A DNA stretch of 63,967 bases, filler included. It is 11 parts of 11 records of this genome, joined end to end, with 100 filler letters (N's around TTAATTAATTAA, not from the genome) between each part and the next. Parts side by side here need not be neighbours in the genome. Positions count along the whole stretch, not along the records: positions 60,008 to 63,967 come from SRR7504441_2966; 10 more parts are not named here. One strand, 5' to 3'. How positions within the stretch are numbered: the stretch's first letter is position 1; every line of letters begins with the position of its first letter. Positions 5,321 through 63,967 of this stretch are shown here, one piece after another. The position numbers and the translations under genes were made by a program. A model generated the notes under the pieces. The model worked only from the letters and a program-made list of their open reading frames with translations, was not told the origin of the DNA and searched no databases.

Positions 5321-5420
5321 NNNNNNNNNNNNNNNNNNNNNNNNNNNNNNNNNNNNNNNNNNNNTTAATTAATTAANNNNNNNNNNNNNNNNNNNNNNNN
5401 NNNNNNNNNNNNNNNNNNNN
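5321..5420. other. Artificial contig-joining linker N44-TTAATTAATTAA-N44 (stops in all six frames)
   Basis: The same 100-nt spacer recurs at 8531-8630, 14645-14744, 18533-18632, 25100-25199, 29999-30098, 34221-34320, 43286-43385, 46707-46806 and 59908-60007. Confidence 0.99.
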
Positions 5421-8292: not shown

Positions 8293-8631
8293 CACGAGTA
8301 TTCTGAGTACATCCCACATGAGGCTGTGTGGGTACAATCTGGGACGAGGGGTACAACTACCGAAGACTGTTGCAATGGCACGTAAATTAATTTATATTCG
8401 TAAGAACAGCCTCTGGCGGAGGCGCGTCGATCTCTTGCTGAAGGTAGCCTTTGGCTAAGGTCTGGTTTATTGAAATTTTACAAAATTTACAAATATATCG
8501 ATATCCAATTGTACAAATCCATGAAATCACNNNNNNNNNNNNNNNNNNNNNNNNNNNNNNNNNNNNNNNNNNNNTTAATTAATTAANNNNNNNNNNNNNN
8601 NNNNNNNNNNNNNNNNNNNNNNNNNNNNNNT

Positions 8632-14643: not shown

Positions 14644-15236
14644 CNNNNNNNNNNNNNNNNNNNNNNNNNNNNNNNNNNNNNNNNNNNNTTAATTAATTAA
14701 NNNNNNNNNNNNNNNNNNNNNNNNNNNNNNNNNNNNNNNNNNNNCCCAGCATGTGCGCCGGAGAGAACAGCCGTTCGAAGCCGAACATTAACAGCTAGCA
14801 TGGCAACGGTCAAAGTCTGGTACGTCCGTTGAGAGCTAGAGTCGTGAAGGTTCTAAGTAGAGATCTAGACTGGCACCAGCCTTAATTAAGGGCTGGTGCT
14901 CCTAGAAACGTTACCTAAACGTAGTGTGGTGTTATTAGTGTGGTGTGATGAGTCTCGATCCATTCGCTAATAAAGAAGGTGTCCATAACGGAGTAGTGTG
15001 CAGACCTATGGAGTGTGTGGGCACTACAGGTACCCACTACAGCGACGATCTGCCAACGGCAACCTCGGAAAACTCACCGATATATATACTACTCGTACGG
15101 TCTACCTACACTTCGCCGCCCCGTGCTACCAACACCAGTTGATTGTTTGCTTTTACGGCCTTACACCCTTGCCTTGTAATAGAGTACAAGTAGAGTACAA
15201 GTAAGAATGCGATCTAACTTTCTGGCTATGGAGCGA

Positions 15237-18404: not shown

Positions 18405-18636
18405 CTCGCGCGCGGGTTTGCTTCCGACGTTCCACTTGCCAGTTGGTGGTGGTCCGTTATCTCAGGGTTCAGTCCAAGGTCAGCTGCTCAGTGCTGCACG
18501 TGTGCACGTGTATGCCAAACAAGAGGAAACCGNNNNNNNNNNNNNNNNNNNNNNNNNNNNNNNNNNNNNNNNNNNNTTAATTAATTAANNNNNNNNNNNN
18601 NNNNNNNNNNNNNNNNNNNNNNNNNNNNNNNNGCAG

Positions 18637-25071: not shown

Positions 25072-25199
25072 TAATTAGTTAGATTTCAAAGCATAAAAAN
25101 NNNNNNNNNNNNNNNNNNNNNNNNNNNNNNNNNNNNNNNNNNNTTAATTAATTAANNNNNNNNNNNNNNNNNNNNNNNNNNNNNNNNNNNNNNNNNNNN

Positions 25200-29673: not shown

Positions 29674-30237
29674 GTGGATGCGGCGCTGCTTCGCAGCGGA
29701 GGCTAACCGTCATGTACCCTGGCTCAGTGCTACGCAGTAGCTATAATAGTTGATGAGGGCGGGCTACCCCGCACGATCTATATAAGTGCACGCTTGGCGT
29801 GAGGGGGTCGATGTACAGGAAGGCCGTGCATGTTTATGCACTAGTGTTCAATCTTTAAATCGAGATCTAGAGCCGGATCGACTACCTGTGCTTGTCCGTT
29901 TGTTAGAAATCCATGTTTCTTTTTGCCCGGGCGAGGTCAATTCTTGATGGATTTGGATGCGGATTGATGCAAATCGCACCTACACAACATGTGCTTTCNN
30001 NNNNNNNNNNNNNNNNNNNNNNNNNNNNNNNNNNNNNNNNNNTTAATTAATTAANNNNNNNNNNNNNNNNNNNNNNNNNNNNNNNNNNNNNNNNNNNNGT
30101 TTGAGTTGGTTTCAATTACCTACTAGTATACTACTACTGAGTATACCGTGACATTACTAGTACATGACATTGTAGTTAACATGTAGTGAACCGGTCGGGC
30201 GCCTGGCAGGGCCCACGAAACGAGTGCTCACTAGACG

Positions 30238-34100: not shown

Positions 34101-34362
34101 TTGAATCGTCGAATACATCGAGCCCCGTGAAAACGGATTGATCATGATTGGCAAGGCACTCGTGTTGTTTTAACAATGTCTGAATTTCGCTTGGGGACAA
34201 TGATATAAAGGTTAAGGAGANNNNNNNNNNNNNNNNNNNNNNNNNNNNNNNNNNNNNNNNNNNNTTAATTAATTAANNNNNNNNNNNNNNNNNNNNNNNN
34301 NNNNNNNNNNNNNNNNNNNNATTGTGAATTCCGTCAATCCAATCGGAGTAGGCCTATGTGAT

Positions 34363-43285: not shown

Positions 43286-43385
43286 NNNNNNNNNNNNNNN
43301 NNNNNNNNNNNNNNNNNNNNNNNNNNNNNTTAATTAATTAANNNNNNNNNNNNNNNNNNNNNNNNNNNNNNNNNNNNNNNNNNNN

Positions 43386-46706: not shown

Positions 46707-46820
46707 NNNNNNNNNNNNNNNNNNNNNNNNNNNNNNNNNNNNNNNNNNNNTTAATTAATTAANNNNNNNNNNNNNNNNNNNNNNNNNNNNNNNNNNNNNN
46801 NNNNNNGGGGGGGGGGGCAG

Positions 46821-59907: not shown

Positions 59908-60090
59908 NNNNNNNNNNNNNNNNNNNNNNNNNNNNNNNNNNNNNNNNNNNNTTAATTAATTAANNNNNNNNNNNNNNNNNNNNNNNNNNNNNNNNNNNNN
60001 NNNNNNNCGTTCAATGCTCTAAGAGTCTATGAAATTATGAGTCTAGATGCCAAACGCTTGCTATTGTTAGTGCGTCTTTAGAAGCCGCTG

Positions 60091-62137
60091 TCATGAGTTG
60101 TGACTGAAGATCCGGATCACCGACTCTACTTGCTGGCCGCAGAACGGGCACCTGCCCGGCCTATCAGCTTCGGTTTCCACTAGCATTCACCCGTCCTGCC
60201 CGTTTCTCCGATTATTGCCACATTCCTCACAGCAGCACCTGTTTGGGCTGAGTGCGGCTCAGGGGTGGGCTGCCTGTGTCCGCAGGGCATTACGATGCAA
60301 TTGATGTCAGCTCGCATGCAGCTGGAGCATCGGAGCTCCTGCTTGCGCCTGTGCAGCTCGCGCTCGAGCGCCTTGGGGCTGTCCGGGGTGGCCGGGTGCT
60401 CGCCCTGGCCTTGGTCGTCCAGTTGGACCCCCATGCTCCGGGCTAGCTCCCTGGCGGCCTCCATGTCATCCATGGCCACGGTGATGTGCCGCTCGACTGG
60501 TTCGCGGCAGATCGGGCAAGTGTCCATCGCGCACTCCTTGCAGGTGGCCAGGTGCCCGCACGGGATGGCCACAGTGTTGGACCGGGCCTCCATGCACACC
60601 ACGCACTCCTCTCGCTCGTCCAGACCGGCGAGCTCCTGCTTGATCTCTGTCGCTGATCGGACGGGCCGGGCCGACTCCGGAGCGCATCCGATCAGTTTGA
60701 GCACTTGCTCTAGCACCAGCTCCTGGTCCTGGCCCTGGGCGATCTGGTCGGCCAGCCCAGCCAGCAGCTGCTCCTCAAGCGGCTCGGCCCCATGGCACTC
60801 GACCTGCCCCGGCTCGGCCCGACCACCGCCCGCGCACCAGCTCGCGCAGCATGGTGATCGTGTCGCTCGGCGGCGGGCTGTCCATCTCTGCCTGCAGCTG
60901 GGCCGCCATCTGCTGGTCCCGTTCTATTGCCTCGAGACGCTCGCGCTCGGCCGCCAGCGGATTGCCAAACTGGGCCGGCGGGGGGGGTGGGCTGCTGGTG
61001 GTGAACTGAGTGAGCAGCTCGAGCGCCCTAGGCAGCATTAGGGTTAGGCTTAGGGTTAGGGCTAGGGTTGCCTGGGCAGCCCAGGCTCGCGGCCTGGTAG
61101 CAGCTCGAGCCGGGTGCCCTGGACCGACCGGAAGCCCATCGCGTCGAAGGTGGCCAGCCCGCCGTCGGCCGAGGCGAGCTGCTTGAAGTTTGGGTTCGAT
61201 AGCATGATCACCTGGGTTAGGGTTAGATCAGCTGCGAGCGTCACCAGATCGATCCGCACCTGGAACTTCTTATCGCCCGGATGCTTGAGCGAGTTGGTCA
61301 AGTACTTTTTGAGCAGCTCAAAGCACTTGCCCGCGTTGGCCGCCCGGCTCAGCCGCTGCAGCCCGTCGGCGAACTGCGGCTCATCGAGCTCGCCGGCCAT
61401 TCGTGGGGGAGCGCCCGACTGGAACTGGGGCTTGCCCTGCTGGAACTCGCCAAACTCTTGGCCCGGGCTTCGGACGGTGGGCTGCATCACCTGCCCGGCA
61501 GTCGGCCTGATGCTCCAGCCGCTGGGCACCGGGGCCGAGTTGTTGGACGGGCTGCTCAGCAGGTCGTCGAGCTGCTCGGCCCCGCGTCGCTGCTCGGCCT
61601 GTGCAATCGCCTGGATGGCCCGGCCCTCCACCGCCGCCTCGGTGGGCTCGGCCAGGCCCGCCGACACACTCGGCCGCTCTGGAGGCCGCAGCTGTGCGCT
61701 GGTCAGCTCCCGAAGAGTCCAGCCGGTCCGGCCGGTGGCTTTGCTCACGAAGTAGCTCTGACCGGTCTGCGGGTCGGCGCACCTGCCACCACTGGTTGGG
61801 CGGGGGCCGCGGGGGCAGTCGCTTTTCTATCCCGTCGTCTGGAAGCTGCCAGGCCGTCCGCTTCAGGTGGTGGTTGACAAAATAGGCCCGGCCTGCCGCT
61901 GGCTAGCACCGGGCCGGTCGGCGGGGGCGGCCTGTGCTCGGGTCGCTGAGCCGCTCCCAGTAGTCTGGGGCCTGCTCGGACTGGCTGCCCGGGTGCACCC
62001 ACGAAGTGGTCCTGGACAGGTTGTCCACGTAGTAAGTCCGGCCCGATCGCGAGTCCATCTGCCCTGGCGCTCAGCCGGACCAGCCGCCGACCCACCCGGG
62101 CTTCCCAACCCGCAGGCAGCGCCGGCTCCGAGGCCAT
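60091..62137 (-). CDS. 3xWW - PUB - 2xRING protein (putative E3 ligase), 8 introns of which 4 are GC-AG
   Basis: WW1 LPAGWEAR|MDSRSGRTYYVDNLSRTTSWVHP; WW2 YWERLSDPSTG|RAYFVNHHLKRTAW; WW3 EK|CADPQTGQSYFVSKATGRTGW; PUB LLKKYLTNSLKHPGDKKFQ|VIMLSNPNF..AMGF; RING1 CVVC..PCGH..CKEC..CPIC; RING2 CSSC..PCGHR|CCCEEC..G|CPFC. Confidence 0.85.
61028..61071 (-). other. GC-AG intron made of telomere-like (CCCTAA)n repeats
   Basis: Minus strand GCAACCCTAGCCCTAACCCTAAGCCTAACCCTAATGCTGCCTAG. Removing it restores the frame GLPR|ALELL. Confidence 0.85.
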
Positions 62138-62489
62138 CACGCCCGGAGCAGCACAGGCGCCGGTCGGCTCGACAAGGCCTGCTCCTTACAAAGGCACCGC
62201 GCCCGGGGCAGCCAGGCGCCGTCGGTCTCAAGGACACCAGGATACCAACAAGCCGTTGCCTTCATGACATCACAACCAGGTCAGGGACTAGTCAGGGACA
62301 TCAGGCCTACTACGGCAGGACTGCGCATACGGTCCTCATTCAAATGCAAAGAGTCACGCAATCTCGAGTACGTCATTAAACTTTAAAGGCTGCTTGCAAG
62401 AACGTTGCAAAGGTACGCATCTAGAGGCCCTGCCGCGAGTGATTCTGAGGCGCAAAAGTGGGTCACACTGAGTGGGCGCGGTCTAAGGC

Positions 62490-63536
62490 TCACTGCGGCG
62501 GCAAGATGGGCAGACGGCCGGGCCACTCGGTGATCTTTAGTCGAAGCACCCGGAGCATGCTCTGGTCCTGCTCCGACTGCTGCTCGCGCGGCTGGTGCGC
62601 CCATTGGACTGCGCAGTGCGGTGCACTCACGTCCTGCTCGGCCACCAGAGCCTGCACGATCGCCTGCCCGTTGGCGGCGCGCATCTTGTCCAGCAGCCTC
62701 GGTCGGAGGCTGACTTCGAACTGCTGTCCGTCCTCCAGCTCCAGGCTGATCTTTGCCAAGGATCGGCTATATGCTCCCGGCTCCGCATCCGGATCTAGAA
62801 TGAACGGGTACATTTTGAGCTCACAGTTGCCCTCTAGCACGCACTGGATGGCCATCAGCCTGGGAGGCTTCACCGCCACCTCATACAGGCACATCCACTG
62901 CTTCCTGCCGGCCGGTGAGCCAGCCAGCCAGGCTGGTTCAGGCTCACCCGTTGCCCAGATCCAGCTTGCGGGCTGACCACTGGTCGGATCGCACGCAGAT
63001 CTTCTCCACGGCCTTGCCGTGTGCGGTGCGCAGGTGACTGATTAGCTCCGAAGGCTTCAGCTGCTCGGTGCAGTGATCGTCCCACGGACAGCCGCAACGC
63101 CTGTGTTCGCACCTGCGGGCCGGCTCAGCCCCTGCGGACCCAGGCAGGGTATTACTCCTTCTCGTGTGCCAATCGGTCAGGGCCGGCCGCCTTGTGCTGG
63201 CAGCCGTGCTCGCGCCACTTGCACGGGAACTCCATCCCGGCGATCAGCTGCTCCATCGCCCGGTTCCTCACCGCGCCCACCACCTTGCGGCAGGACGGGC
63301 ACTTGTTGCGGGGCAGCCGGTCCTTGCACGGCCCGCACACCAAGTGGCCTGCCCATGGGCTCAGCCGCTGTCAACCAGCTGGTGGCACCCTCGGCACATT
63401 GGAAGATCTCGCAACTGAAAACCTCCAGGCACACGGGGCACTCGGCTAGCGACTCGTCGATGCTCCCTGAGATCATCCGGGACGGCGCCGGCCGCGGCCC
63501 CTCCGGCGACCGGTTCCGCTTCCCTCCGGCCGGCAT
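62490..63536 (-). CDS. SINA/SIAH-like RING E3 ligase with TRAF-type zinc fingers
   Basis: ECPVCLEVF..IFQCAEG|HLVCGPC..CPSCR..RNRAMEQL..FPCKWREHGC..HEKE|CEHRRCGCP..HLRTAH; three GT-AG introns of 40-44 nt. Confidence 0.85.
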
Positions 63537-63675
63537 ATCTAGCCCCAAGTCTGGTCTCCCCCTTGTCTCTTCGCCCTCGGACCCCCCGGAACCTTGGCGC
63601 AAGCCTCCCACACGTTTGTGTTCGTACAAACACACCTTCAAGCCGCGGCCAATAAACGTCAGCCCAACGGCATCG

Positions 63676-63967
63676 ATGCCTGCGGCGCTGCTGCCCTGGC
63701 AGGTGGGCTGCTGGGGGATCGTGTGCTTCTGCGGGTGTTTATGGGTGGCCAGAGGCACGGTCCCGCCCGCGAGCACGTCCACGGCCGATGCGTCTGGGAA
63801 GAAAGATCTGCGCAAGAACAAAATCCTCGCTCTGTTCTCGCGCCACTTCACCCACCATTCGACGAGGGTTCAGAAGAGGAGCAATCACAGGAGCCGCCAC
63901 AAGAGCCAACACCAACGGCACCAGTACCCGTCACTGACCGAGCAGTAGACCTGGATGGGATCAATGC
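63676..63967 (+). CDS. Possible start of an unknown gene (3'-partial)
   Basis: ATG, then CAG|GTGGG...CAG, then an open acidic/Pro-rich frame (PFDEGSEEEQSQEPPQEP) running to the window end. Confidence 0.3.

What the first reader, a model, noticed from the sequence alone, without database searches (positions are those of the whole stretch)
61027..61080. Intron built from telomeric repeats and flanked by a target-site-like duplication
Seen: the + strand reads CCTAGGCAGC [A TTAGGG TTAGGC TTAGGG TTAGGG CTAGGG TTG] CCTGGGCAGC. That is 34 nt of TTAGGG-type repeat between two 10-nt direct repeats (9/10 identical). On the sense (minus) strand this is a 44-nt GC-AG intron (61071-61028) that must be removed to keep the frame between the PUB and RING regions. 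One repeat copy supplies the exon end and donor (GCTGCCCAG|G); the other supplies the acceptor (GCTGCCTAG|G). Known: TTAGGG is the widespread eukaryotic telomere repeat, telomerase can add repeats at double-strand breaks, and CCCTAAC contains the branch-point core CTAAC. Inference: a staggered break repaired with telomeric filler would create donor, branch point and acceptor in one step, giving a telomerase-driven route to new introns.
Basis: partly seen in the sequence, partly recalled or inferred. Interest (0 to 1): 0.85.

Follow-up and report, generated by a model that had tools for sequence, protein, structure and literature searches.

The report
Spliced intron made of telomere repeats
A 44-base intron in a gene of an uncultured marine microbe is made almost entirely of chromosome-end (telomere) repeats, sits between two copies of a 10-base stretch of the gene, and really is spliced out; dozens of similar insertions in other marine DNA suggest that repairing broken genes with telomere repeats can create new introns.

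Summary
Window 61027-61080 reads as described. The TTAGGG-type array is far beyond chance (5 matches, 0.36 expected).

An RNA contig from a marine metatranscriptome joins 61026 to 71, skipping 44 bases. Only the placement 61071-61028 gives GC..AG on the minus strand. The same contig also skips a neighbouring 48-base intron that ends in two telomere-like units.

No orthologue, intron-less allele or genome could be obtained, so the origin of this one intron is inferred, not shown.

A pattern scan of metagenome contigs found at least 110 stretches with similar arrays.
- **Flanking duplications:** 112 of 507 arrays in GC-rich contigs lie between non-telomeric direct repeats of 12 bases or more, against 39 of 459 controls.
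- **Coding phase:** excising array plus one repeat copy restores it in 14 of 15 informative cases.
- **Splice sites:** 71 of 82 allow an exact GY..AG intron, against 8 of 32 controls.
- **Orientation:** all 21 mixed-orientation inserts run head-to-head, as expected if 3' ends on both sides of a break were extended.

Verdict: a real intron, most likely born from a break repaired with telomeric repeats. Telomerase itself is not demonstrated.

The parts
61028..61071 (-). 44-nt GC-AG spliceosomal intron (i44), the finding itself
   Evidence: RNA contig X9 record 21 joins 61026|61071, skipping 44 with ambiguity 3. Only this placement gives GC..AG. Removing it links frame f0 to f2.
61037..61070 (.). 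34-nt filler of TTAGGG-type units (G-rich on the + strand, C-rich in the transcript): 3 perfect TTAGGG units, 2 variant units (TTAGGC, CTAGGG) and partial ends
61027..61036 (.). Direct-repeat copy B. In the sense strand it holds the last 9 nt of the intron (with the TAG acceptor) plus the first base of the downstream exon.
   Evidence: 10 nt with 1 mismatch, spanning positions -9..+1 of both junctions
61071..61080 (.). Direct-repeat copy A. In the sense strand it holds the last 9 nt of the upstream exon plus the G of the GC donor.
61212..61259 (-). Neighbouring 48-nt GT-AG intron (i48). Its 3' end is CTAACCCTAACCCAG, and it is flanked by a perfect 7-nt direct repeat (CCAG|GTG). It splits the PUB-like domain.
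   Evidence: The same RNA contig skips 48 nt at 61208|61257, cut +3. Sequence; repeat. PUB profile 5-28 ends at the exon end before it and 30-61 starts after it.
61072..61211 (-). 140-nt exon between the two telomere-like introns (C-terminal half of the PUB-like domain plus linker)
60838..61027 (-). Exon downstream of i44 (linker before the first RING)
62059..62095 (-). 37-nt GT-AG intron in the first WW domain
   Evidence: joint 62058|62096 in X9; sequence
61783..61822 (-). 40-nt GC-AG intron
   Evidence: joint 61781|61822, ambiguity 1, in X1; sequence
60804..60837 (-). 34-nt GT-AG intron
   Evidence: joint 60801|60836, cut +2, in X8; sequence
60239..60273 (-). 35-nt GC-AG intron in the second RING
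   Evidence: joint 60237|60273, ambiguity 5, in X1; sequence
61893..61928 (-). Predicted 36-nt GC-AG intron in the second WW domain (no RNA support)
   Evidence: frame reading; coordinates
60008..63967 (.). The contig that carries the gene. The window is 11 contigs joined by N44-TTAATTAATTAA-N44 spacers.
   Evidence: GC 0.651

Best explanation
The 44 bases at 61071-61028 (minus strand) are a working GC-AG intron of a WW / PUB-like / double-RING gene in an unidentified GC-rich marine eukaryote.

The intron most likely did not exist before. The likely sequence of events is:
1. The coding exon suffered a staggered break.
2. The 10 overlapping bases ended up on both ends.
3. One 3' end was extended with TTAGGG-type repeats by telomerase or a telomerase-like reverse transcriptase.
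4. The ends were rejoined.

The duplicated 10-mer contains AG|G. The first copy therefore offers ...CAG|GC as donor and the second ...TAG|G as acceptor. Splicing removes exactly the filler plus one copy and restores the original message. In the transcript the filler reads CCCTAA-type units, which contain CTAAC-like branch-site candidates.

**Shown:** the sequence, the non-random array, the duplication, the splicing, and the existence of a recurrent class with the same anatomy elsewhere.

**Inferred:** that this intron is an insertion rather than an old intron, the staggered break, and the enzyme.
For: **At the locus**
- Sequence and repeat statistics.
- Splicing of i44 and, on the same RNA contig, of i48.
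- Only 14 of the 44 nt are not telomere-like, and 10 of those are the duplicated target.
- Among 10 introns on this contig (6 with RNA support, 4 predicted), the longest junction-spanning repeat is i44's (10 nt, 1 mismatch). Next are i48 (7 exact) and the non-telomeric i35 (7 with 1 mismatch). The other seven have 2-6 nt.

**The class in metagenome contigs**
- In 80 loci of GC 0.58 or more there are 507 telomere-like blocks. Non-telomeric flanking duplications of 12 nt or more: 112 against 39 of 459 pseudo-block controls. Of 15 nt or more: 68 against 17.
- GC3 coding phase is continuous only after excision in 14 of 15 informative cases (1 without excision, 0 neither). Controls: 0 of 2 and 0 of 19.
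- Among 82 unique inserts not selected by my pattern, 71 allow a GY..AG intron whose length equals the duplication period, against 8 of 32 controls.
- Of 148 unique inserts with a duplication of 10 nt or more, 65 and 61 have a single orientation and 21 are mixed. All 21 run (TTAGGG)n then (CCCTAA)m; none run the reverse way. Two pairs come from overlapping contigs, so about 19 are independent.
- Two contigs differ only by one extra [duplication + array] unit.

**Literature, passages seen**
- Telomeric repeats inserted at break sites in mammals, with target duplications in 4.6-16% of loci (PMC2246262).
Against: - No empty site, orthologue or polymorphism was found for this locus, so an old intron cannot be excluded.
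- Four of the 10 repeat positions are splice consensus.
- The array has 2 variant units and the duplication 1 mismatch, so the event is not fresh.
- i44 has no in-register microhomology between the target 3' end and the first repeat. Most mammalian telomerase insertions do (PMC2246262).
- The organism's telomere repeat is unknown, and no telomere or telomerase gene is in the window.
- The metagenome loci share no sequence with the window, so they may be other organisms. They were also picked with a pattern that demands splice-like borders. I excluded the triggering arrays but not.
- Single-orientation arrays show no anchoring to the presumed primer side (62 against 68 of 126).
- Splicing rests on one contig in one run.
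- No RNA evidence exists for any metagenome locus.
Confidence: 0.6

Rival explanations
1. An old intron invaded by a microsatellite. A pre-existing short intron had a CTAACCC-type branch-site motif that expanded by replication slippage and replaced the rest of the intron. The 10-nt flanking repeat is coincidence plus splice consensus.
For: The neighbouring intron i48 ends in just two such units. Other introns on the contig have CTNAS-like motifs 12-18 nt before the acceptor, by my reading. YAGG at both borders is expected from splice consensus. No orthologue could be examined.
Against: Only 4 nt at the 5' end would be left of the old intron. The remaining 6 repeat positions match at a background of about 1e-3. 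No other telomere-like tract exists in the other roughly 60 kb, so it is not a general intron motif. Slippage cannot make the head-to-head arrays or the 12-38-nt duplications of the wider class.
Confidence: 0.13
2. An insertion, but not by telomerase. The filler was made by another route: capture of telomeric DNA or of cDNA from telomeric transcripts, templated copying by an end-joining polymerase from the nearby i48 tract, or a small mobile element (introner-like) built of telomere-type repeats.
For: i44 lacks in-register microhomology. i48 lies 140 nt away in the same orientation and could have served as template. Arrays cluster within genes. Head-to-head arrays look like terminal inverted repeats. 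Introners of unknown mechanism exist (PMC12130899, passages).
Against: Duplication length varies from 10 to 38 nt, unlike the fixed 3-9 nt of DNA transposons (PMC9860276, passage). Random capture predicts both orders of mixed arrays, but 21:0 was seen. No template for the non-telomeric part of i48 is in the window. No conserved non-repeat core is visible among the inserts.
Confidence: 0.22
3. An artefact. The telomere-like stretch is an assembly error in a metagenome-assembled contig, and the RNA contig shows the true, uninterrupted gene.
For: The window is a stitched set of contigs. Telomere-like reads are very abundant in the runs (depth about 1000 in the bin holding the array). No DNA contig bridging both borders was seen.
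Against: A chance mis-join would not give GC..AG borders, a length typical of this gene's introns (34-48 nt) and an exact duplication of the target. A DNA contig in run X2 matches 61040-61071, variant units and border included, without a difference (record 14). Five other introns of the gene are skipped in the same way.
Confidence: 0.03

Closest known systems
Short interstitial telomeric sequences inserted at double-strand breaks, attributed to telomerase, in primates and rodents (Nergadze et al. 2007, PMC2246262; passages seen)
   Same: Short TTAGGG arrays at internal sites, inserted during break repair and sometimes with target-site duplication (6 of 130 rodent and 4 of 25 primate loci). Telomerase was inferred from sequence signatures.
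   Different: Those lie in non-coding DNA or existing introns and are not reported to create introns. Here the insert sits in a coding exon and is spliced. The duplications in the wider class are longer (median 14 nt). i44 lacks the in-register microhomology typical there.
Intron gain during repair of staggered double-strand breaks (Daphnia, Drosophila, Aspergillus; PMC4202315, PMC3020277, PMC3443670; passages seen)
   Same: A direct repeat of the exon end reappears at the far end of the new intron (4-12 bp in Daphnia) and overlaps the splice sites. The message is restored exactly.
   Different: The source of the filler there is unknown or heterogeneous. None of the three papers contains a telomere term relevant to intron filler ('telomer': 0, 0, and 1 in a reference title). 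Here the filler is telomeric repeat, which names a candidate enzyme.
Introners: transposon-derived intron families (PMC9860276, PMC12130899; passages seen)
   Same: Many similar short introns in GC-rich marine protists. The target duplication contributes a splice site. Some genes carry tens of copies.
   Different: Introners have a family-specific sequence, often terminal inverted repeats, and a fixed 3-9-bp duplication. Here there is no unique core and the duplication varies from 10 to 38 nt. 'telomer' occurs 0 times in both papers' main text.
Pervasive interstitial telomeric tracts in the coccolithophore Calcidiscus leptoporus genome (PMC13518057; passages seen)
   Same: A GC-rich (59%), intron-rich marine alga with TTAGGG telomeres and frequent internal TTAGGG tracts.
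   Different: In the passages seen, the tracts are treated as an assembly nuisance and a possible sign of rearrangement. They are not linked to introns, duplications or splicing. Whether the window's organism is a haptophyte is not shown. Supplementary figure S5 could not be seen.
Intron gain by tandem duplication of an AGGT-containing segment (model summarised in PMC3443670; passage seen)
   Same: Two copies of an AG|G-containing exon segment supply donor and acceptor.
   Different: In that model the intron is itself duplicated exon sequence. Here 34 nt of foreign repeat lie between the copies.

Membership tests
Spliceosomal (U2-type) GC-AG intron | Absent from mature RNA while flanking exons are joined | tested here: met
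   One RNA contig (X9, 243 nt) joins 61026|61071 with 0 differing letters on both sides.
Spliceosomal (U2-type) GC-AG intron | GY at the 5' end and AG at the 3' end | tested here: met
   Of the 4 placements allowed by the 3-letter ambiguity, only 61071-61028 gives GC..AG.
Spliceosomal (U2-type) GC-AG intron | Branch point / lariat | not testable with these tools
   CTAAC occurs in the intron, but no lariat data are available.
Break-repair interstitial telomeric sequence (Nergadze class) | Tandem telomere-type hexamers at an internal site | tested here: met
Break-repair interstitial telomeric sequence (Nergadze class) | Empty orthologous site in a relative | tested here: inconclusive
   No relative of the gene region was found. 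The DNA run laid did not bridge the site.
Break-repair interstitial telomeric sequence (Nergadze class) | [quoted passage not shown] | tested here: not met
   For i44, the target ends ...GGCAGC and is followed by A then TTAGGG. For i48...CCTGG is followed by GTTAGGG, which is in register.
Break-repair interstitial telomeric sequence (Nergadze class) | The repeat equals the organism's own telomere unit | not testable with these tools
   No genome is held and the organism is not identified.
Intron gained by staggered-break repair | [quoted passage not shown] | tested here: met
   10 nt with 1 mismatch spanning -9..+1 of both junctions. Background is about 1e-4 per position-spacing.
Intron gained by staggered-break repair | Recent origin: presence/absence polymorphism or absence in relatives | tested here: inconclusive
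   No data for this locus. In the wider class, one copy-number difference of a [duplication + array] unit between two contigs, and one insert shared by contigs 92.6% identical.
Introner (transposon-derived intron family) | Fixed-length target duplication and/or terminal inverted repeats, with a family-specific sequence | tested here: not met
   Duplications range from 10 to 38 nt with median 14. There is no unique core. Only the 21 mixed inserts are palindromic.

The most novel reading that the evidence does not exclude
In a lineage of GC-rich marine protists (possibly haptophytes), telomerase works as a transposon-free intron generator. Breaks in coding exons are capped with TTAGGG repeats on one or both 3' ends and rejoined with a 10-38-nt duplication of the target. 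Whenever that duplication holds AG|GY, the scar is spliceable at once. Such scars cluster and accumulate, up to dozens per gene; about a third of the 7.2-kb contig L095 is telomere-like. The window's i44 and i48 are two members whose splicing is seen in RNA.
Probability: 0.45. Interest if true: 0.92.

Novelty: new variant of a known kind. Interest (0 to 1): 0.8.

Why it matters
How new spliceosomal introns arise is a long-standing open question. Two routes have sequence evidence: transposon-like introners, and repair of staggered breaks with filler of unknown source.

Here the filler has a recognisable maker's mark. Telomeric repeats, with head-to-head polarity when both ends carry them, point to telomerase. 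A target duplication carrying AG|GY explains how the scar can be spliced at once.

If this is right, a universal eukaryotic enzyme can seed introns without any mobile element. It could also explain why some intron-rich marine algae are full of internal telomeric tracts.

The idea is directly testable: induce breaks in a reporter exon of a culturable haptophyte, with and without telomerase. It also warns annotators that masking simple repeats hides a whole class of introns.

Tried and rejected
**Relatives and the genome**
- No whole genome is held for the window.
- Relatives of the gene: the search for homologous proteins gave nothing with longer or near lengths.
- The representative search gave 15 hits. 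All lie within query residues 1-114, the WW part; none reaches the PUB-like region or the intron site.
- The search for related loci on metagenome contigs matched 445 pattern stretches, none a relative.

**Organism identity**
- The sugar-transporter ORF has a best hit of 55% identity, unnamed. Named hits are land plants at 35-41% and Chloropicon at 36%.
- Cluster look-up gave no organism.
- The protein atlas gave only RING clusters below 0.9.
- The Mamiellales 'BOC1' small AT-rich 40-65-bp introns (PMC3491373, passages) do not fit these GC-rich 34-48-nt introns.
- Pelagomonas (10.1101/2021.10.25.465678, passages) has about 210-nt introner peaks, also a poor fit.

**Analyses that failed or were uninformative**
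- My ORF-linking scan for tiny introns gave 60 and 70 clusters on the two strands, including inside known exons. It is too unspecific for a denominator.
- The joined-ORF test with 120-nt flanks gave sense 18, antisense 14 and unspliced 5 of 102. It is uninformative because other arrays or introns lie nearby.
- ORF length before and after excision is uninformative in GC-rich DNA.
- Strand calling by stop codons was unreliable.
- Single-orientation arrays show no anchoring asymmetry.
- No template for the non-telomeric part of i48 is in the window.
- The window and the metagenome loci share no similarity.

**Read data**
- Parts of the stretch without cover in the laid runs say nothing.
- No DNA contig bridged the intron, and no RNA contig showed retention.

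**Earlier notes of this scan**
Nothing on this genome.

**Literature**
Nine searches found no paper linking telomeric repeats to intron gain. The library lacks most subscription journals, and supplements were closed.
- The E. huxleyi genome paper is not held.
Full report
**1. What is there**

A 10-nt copy is followed by 34 nt of TTAGGG-type units (three perfect units, the variants TTAGGC and CTAGGG, and partial ends). A second copy follows that is 9/10 identical.

- Tandem Repeats Finder reports period 6, 5.3 copies and score 50 at 61038-61069.
- The 11-mer with up to 1 mismatch occurs 5 times against 0.36 expected. None of 100 shuffles reached 5.
- The fifth match is not in this stretch. It lies at 61217-61227, which became important later.
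- A 10-mer repeated with up to 1 mismatch at a fixed spacing of 30-70 nt is found at 249 of 2,555,957 position-spacings. At spacing 44 it is found at 3 of 62,383 positions, this one included.
- YAGG at both borders is what splice consensus gives anyway. The repeat by itself is therefore worth about 1e-3.

**2. The window and the gene**

The window is not one piece of chromosome. Ten spacers of 44 N, TTAATTAATTAA and 44 N join 11 contigs. These fall into two GC classes, 0.48-0.52 and 0.61-0.65. The focal contig is 60008-63967, with GC 0.651. No whole genome is held.

On the minus strand lies a gene with these domains:
- WW domains, the best at 38.8 bits.
- A PUB-like region at 24 bits, under Pfam's 34.3 cut-off.
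- Two RING fingers (zf-C3HC4_3, 53.1 bits).

Coding exons have GC3 of 0.85-0.89.

**3. Is it spliced?**

The run search listed 22 runs, all marine or seawater metagenomes or metatranscriptomes. No share of the sampled words exceeded 0.13. I laid three RNA runs and one DNA run on 60008-63967.

One RNA contig of run X9 (243 nt, depth 3.7) lies on 60992-61026, 61071-61208 and 61257-61326, with 0, 0 and 1 differing letters. It skips 44 nt, with a 3-letter ambiguity, and then skips 48 nt. Only the placement 61071-61028 gives GC..AG on the minus strand.

Four more joints in the same gene are each carried by one contig:

| Skip | Splice sites | Run |
|---|---|---|
| 37 nt | GT-AG | X9 |
| 40 nt | GC-AG | X1 |
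| 34 nt | GT-AG | X8 |
| 35 nt | GC-AG | X1 |

The gene is therefore full of tiny introns of 34-48 nt, and half of the RNA-supported ones use GC donors. Three further tiny GT-AG introns in the neighbouring SINA-like gene, and one GC-AG intron in the second WW domain, are predicted from frames only.

Support for i44 is a single contig in a single run. No DNA contig bridged the site, and none showed retention.

**4. The second telomere-like intron**

The 48-nt intron (61259-61212) ends in CTAACCCTAACCCAG and is flanked by a perfect 7-nt repeat, CCAG|GTG. It splits the PUB-like domain cleanly. Profile positions 5-28 end at the exon end before it, and 30-61 begin after it.

On the + strand it reads: target ...CCTGG, then GTTAGGGTTAG in register, then 30 nt of other filler for which the window holds no template.

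These two tracts are the only telomere-like tracts in the 64 kb. The six other near-matches are 12-14 nt with 2 mismatches. Telomere-like units are therefore not a general intron signal of this organism. Two events 140 nt apart in one gene are unlikely to be independent.

Among the 10 introns on the contig, the longest junction-spanning repeat belongs to i44 (10 nt with 1 mismatch). It is followed by i48 (7 exact) and the non-telomeric i35 (7 with 1 mismatch). The remaining seven have 2-6 nt.

**5. Relatives**

No relative of the gene region could be found.
- The word-index searches gave nothing.
- The exhaustive HMMER search gave 15 hits, all to the WW part.
- The metagenome locus search gave none.

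The organism stays unidentified. A transporter ORF has a best hit of 55% identity, unnamed; named hits are land plants and Chloropicon at 35-41%.

Frequent GC donors recall Emiliania huxleyi, with 56-65% GC donors (PMC4028052, passages). That is more than pelagophytes, at about 14-17% (10.1101/2024.10.30.620910, passages). This is a lead, not a test.

**6. Is it one of a kind?**

I scanned the metagenome contig collection with a pattern that i44 itself fits: CAGGY, up to 12 nt, two and a half telomere units, up to 30 nt, YAGG.

Most are GC 0.59-0.76. Many show long direct repeats across both borders. A repeat of 10 nt or more with up to 1 mismatch occurs in 41 of 116, against 103 of 2,296 mismatched donor-acceptor pairs.

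Many contigs carry many arrays in both orientations. Overall there are 616 perfect arrays of 2 or more units in 364,785 nt, and 55 of them are in the 7.2-kb L095, a third of which is telomere-like.

Reading L095 shows coding-like sequence interrupted again and again by [duplicated target]-array-[duplicated target].

**7. Tests on the class**

I took all 507 telomere-like blocks in the 80 loci of GC 0.58 or more. As controls I used pseudo-blocks of the same lengths, placed away from arrays.

(a) **Flanking duplications.** Non-telomeric duplications of 12 nt or more: 112 of 507 against 39 of 459. Of 15 nt or more: 68 against 17.

(b) **Coding phase.** I used cases where both flanks show clear GC3 periodicity, are free of other arrays, and the period is not a multiple of 3. 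The phase is continuous only after removing array plus one copy in 14 of 15 (1 without removal, 0 neither). With duplications of 8 nt or more the counts are 22, 3 and 1. Controls never needed removal (0 of 2; 0 of 19). Dropped before the 15 were counted:
- 58 with telomere hexamers in the flanks
- 22 without clear periodicity
- 10 with a period divisible by 3
- 6 at contig edges

(c) **Splice solutions.** I excluded the arrays that triggered my pattern (29 skipped). Of the 82 unique inserts that remain, 71 allow a GY..AG intron whose length equals the duplication period, against 8 of 32 controls:
- 53 with the C-rich strand in sense
- 36 with the G-rich strand in sense
- 18 on both strands
- 11 on neither

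With duplications of 10 nt or more the figures are 91 of 110 against 19 of 79. Solutions only on the C strand (35) outnumber those only on the G strand (18), binomial p = 0.027.

(d) **Orientation.** Of 148 unique inserts with duplications of 10 nt or more, 65 and 61 have one orientation, 1 has no clear tract, and 21 have both. All 21 read (TTAGGG)n then (CCCTAA)m; none the reverse. Two pairs come from the overlapping contigs L031 and L043, so about 19 are independent.

(e) **Sizes.** The duplication has median 14 nt and range 10-38. The period has median 88.5 and range 24-183, and 29 of 148 are 60 nt or shorter, like i44. Twenty-one of 61 loci carry three or more such inserts.

(f) **Variation between contigs.** Two otherwise identical contigs differ by one extra [duplication + array] unit of 30 nt. 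Two contigs 92.6% identical share a 44-nt telomere-like GC..AG candidate at the same place.

**8. What this means**

- telomeric filler between two copies of the target,
- inside coding sequence,
- with the duplication carrying AG|GY, so that one copy gives the donor and the other the acceptor.

The 21:0 polarity is the most telling point.
- Random capture of telomeric fragments predicts both orders.
- Slippage cannot make inverted arrays.
- Fold-back copying would make mirror images, and by my reading of the inserts printed they are not.
- G-strands running away from both target copies are what extension of both 3' ends of a break by a telomerase-like enzyme gives, followed by end joining.

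Earlier notes of this scan read back-to-back telomere repeats in bdelloid rotifer introns the same way. I did not test those.

**9. Limits**

- The metagenome loci share no sequence with the window and may be other organisms.
- They were chosen with a pattern that asks for splice-like borders. Only test (c) excluded the triggering arrays.
- None has RNA evidence.
- Single-orientation arrays are not anchored to the presumed primer side (gap of 3 nt or less on 62 against 68 of 126).
- i44 itself has no in-register microhomology.
- The cause of 10-38-nt staggered breaks is unknown.
- The frequent junction ...CCCTAACCA|GG contains an A that is neither target nor telomeric. This may be selection for an AG acceptor, and it is partly favoured by my pattern.

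**10. Compared with what is known**

- Telomeric repeats inserted at break sites, attributed to telomerase and sometimes with target duplications, are described for mammals (PMC2246262, passages).
- Introners are transposon-derived, with fixed 3-9-bp duplications (PMC9860276, passage).
- The two large introner surveys do not contain the word stem 'telomer' in their main text.
- A 2026 coccolithophore genome paper reports 'pervasive interstitial telomeric tracts' in an intron-rich genome of 59% GC with TTAGGG telomeres. In the passages seen it does not tie them to introns (PMC13518057). Its supplementary figure could not be seen.
- Nine full-text searches found no paper linking telomeric repeats to intron gain. 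The library lacks most subscription journals, and two likely sources could not be read.

**11. Verdict**

- **Observation:** confirmed, including splicing.
- **Interpretation:** partly supported. The insertion-with-duplication origin is the best reading (about 0.75 for insertion of any kind, about 0.6 with a telomerase-like enzyme). It remains unproven for this locus.
- **Novelty:** a new variant that combines two known kinds, break-repair intron gain and telomerase-made internal telomeric sequences.
- **Scale:** the class may be large in some marine protists.

Noticed in passing
window 5321-5420, 8531-8630, 14645-14744, 18533-18632, 25100-25199, 29999-30098, 34221-34320, 43286-43385, 46707-46806, 59908-60007: Ten spacers of 44 N + TTAATTAATTAA + 44 N. 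The window is a stitched series of 11 contigs in two GC classes (0.48-0.52 and 0.61-0.65), so neighbours across spacers need not be adjacent or even from one organism.
   Followed up: partly
window 60008-63967: All 10 introns read on this contig are tiny (34-48 nt) and GC-rich (0.55-0.85 for the six with RNA support). Four of the 10 use GC donors (3 of the 6 with RNA support). Likely branch motifs are CTGAG, CTCAC or CTAAC, 12-18 nt before the acceptor.
   Followed up: partly
window 62400-63900, minus strand: A SINA-like (seven-in-absentia type) RING/zinc-finger gene with three predicted 40-43-nt GT-AG introns lies next to the focal gene. There is no RNA support.
   Followed up: no
window 1-24483, + strand: A run of very long open frames (532-1313 aa) lies in the low-GC contigs. 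One carries DUF3638 and DUF3645, so this is probably one giant gene spread over several contigs.
   Followed up: no
window 61040-61071 (DNA run X2, record 14): A 106-nt DNA contig matches the array, its variant units and the border without a difference, and then 'goes back 33'. It may be an allele of this intron with a longer array.
   Followed up: no
window 61034-61069 (loose ends in RNA runs X1, X8): RNA contigs that match only the array continue into GC-rich, coding-like sequence with splice-like borders on the C-rich strand. This hints at other telomere-repeat introns in the same samples (table 7).
   Followed up: partly
L095:1-7175: About 34% of this 7.2-kb GC-rich contig is telomere-like, in 40 blocks. 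Fourteen inserts have duplications of 10 nt or more, and some sites are hit twice in tandem, for example the same 15-nt target three times around 1030-1220.
   Followed up: partly
L045:1573-1637 vs L110:1122-1156: Two otherwise identical contigs differ by one extra 30-nt unit of [10-nt target copy + AT + three CCCTAA]. This is a copy-number polymorphism of the insert.
   Followed up: yes
L041:9392-9440 vs L109:6400-6448: Contigs 92.6% identical share a 44-nt telomere-like GC..AG candidate intron flanked by a 9-nt duplication. Their differences pile up in the 3' part of the insert.
   Followed up: partly
L002, L008, L009, L024, L028, L044, L052, L070, L071: Low-GC contigs (0.32-0.44) also matched the pattern, with only two units and no coding periodicity. 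They are probably unrelated internal telomere-like motifs of other organisms.
   Followed up: no
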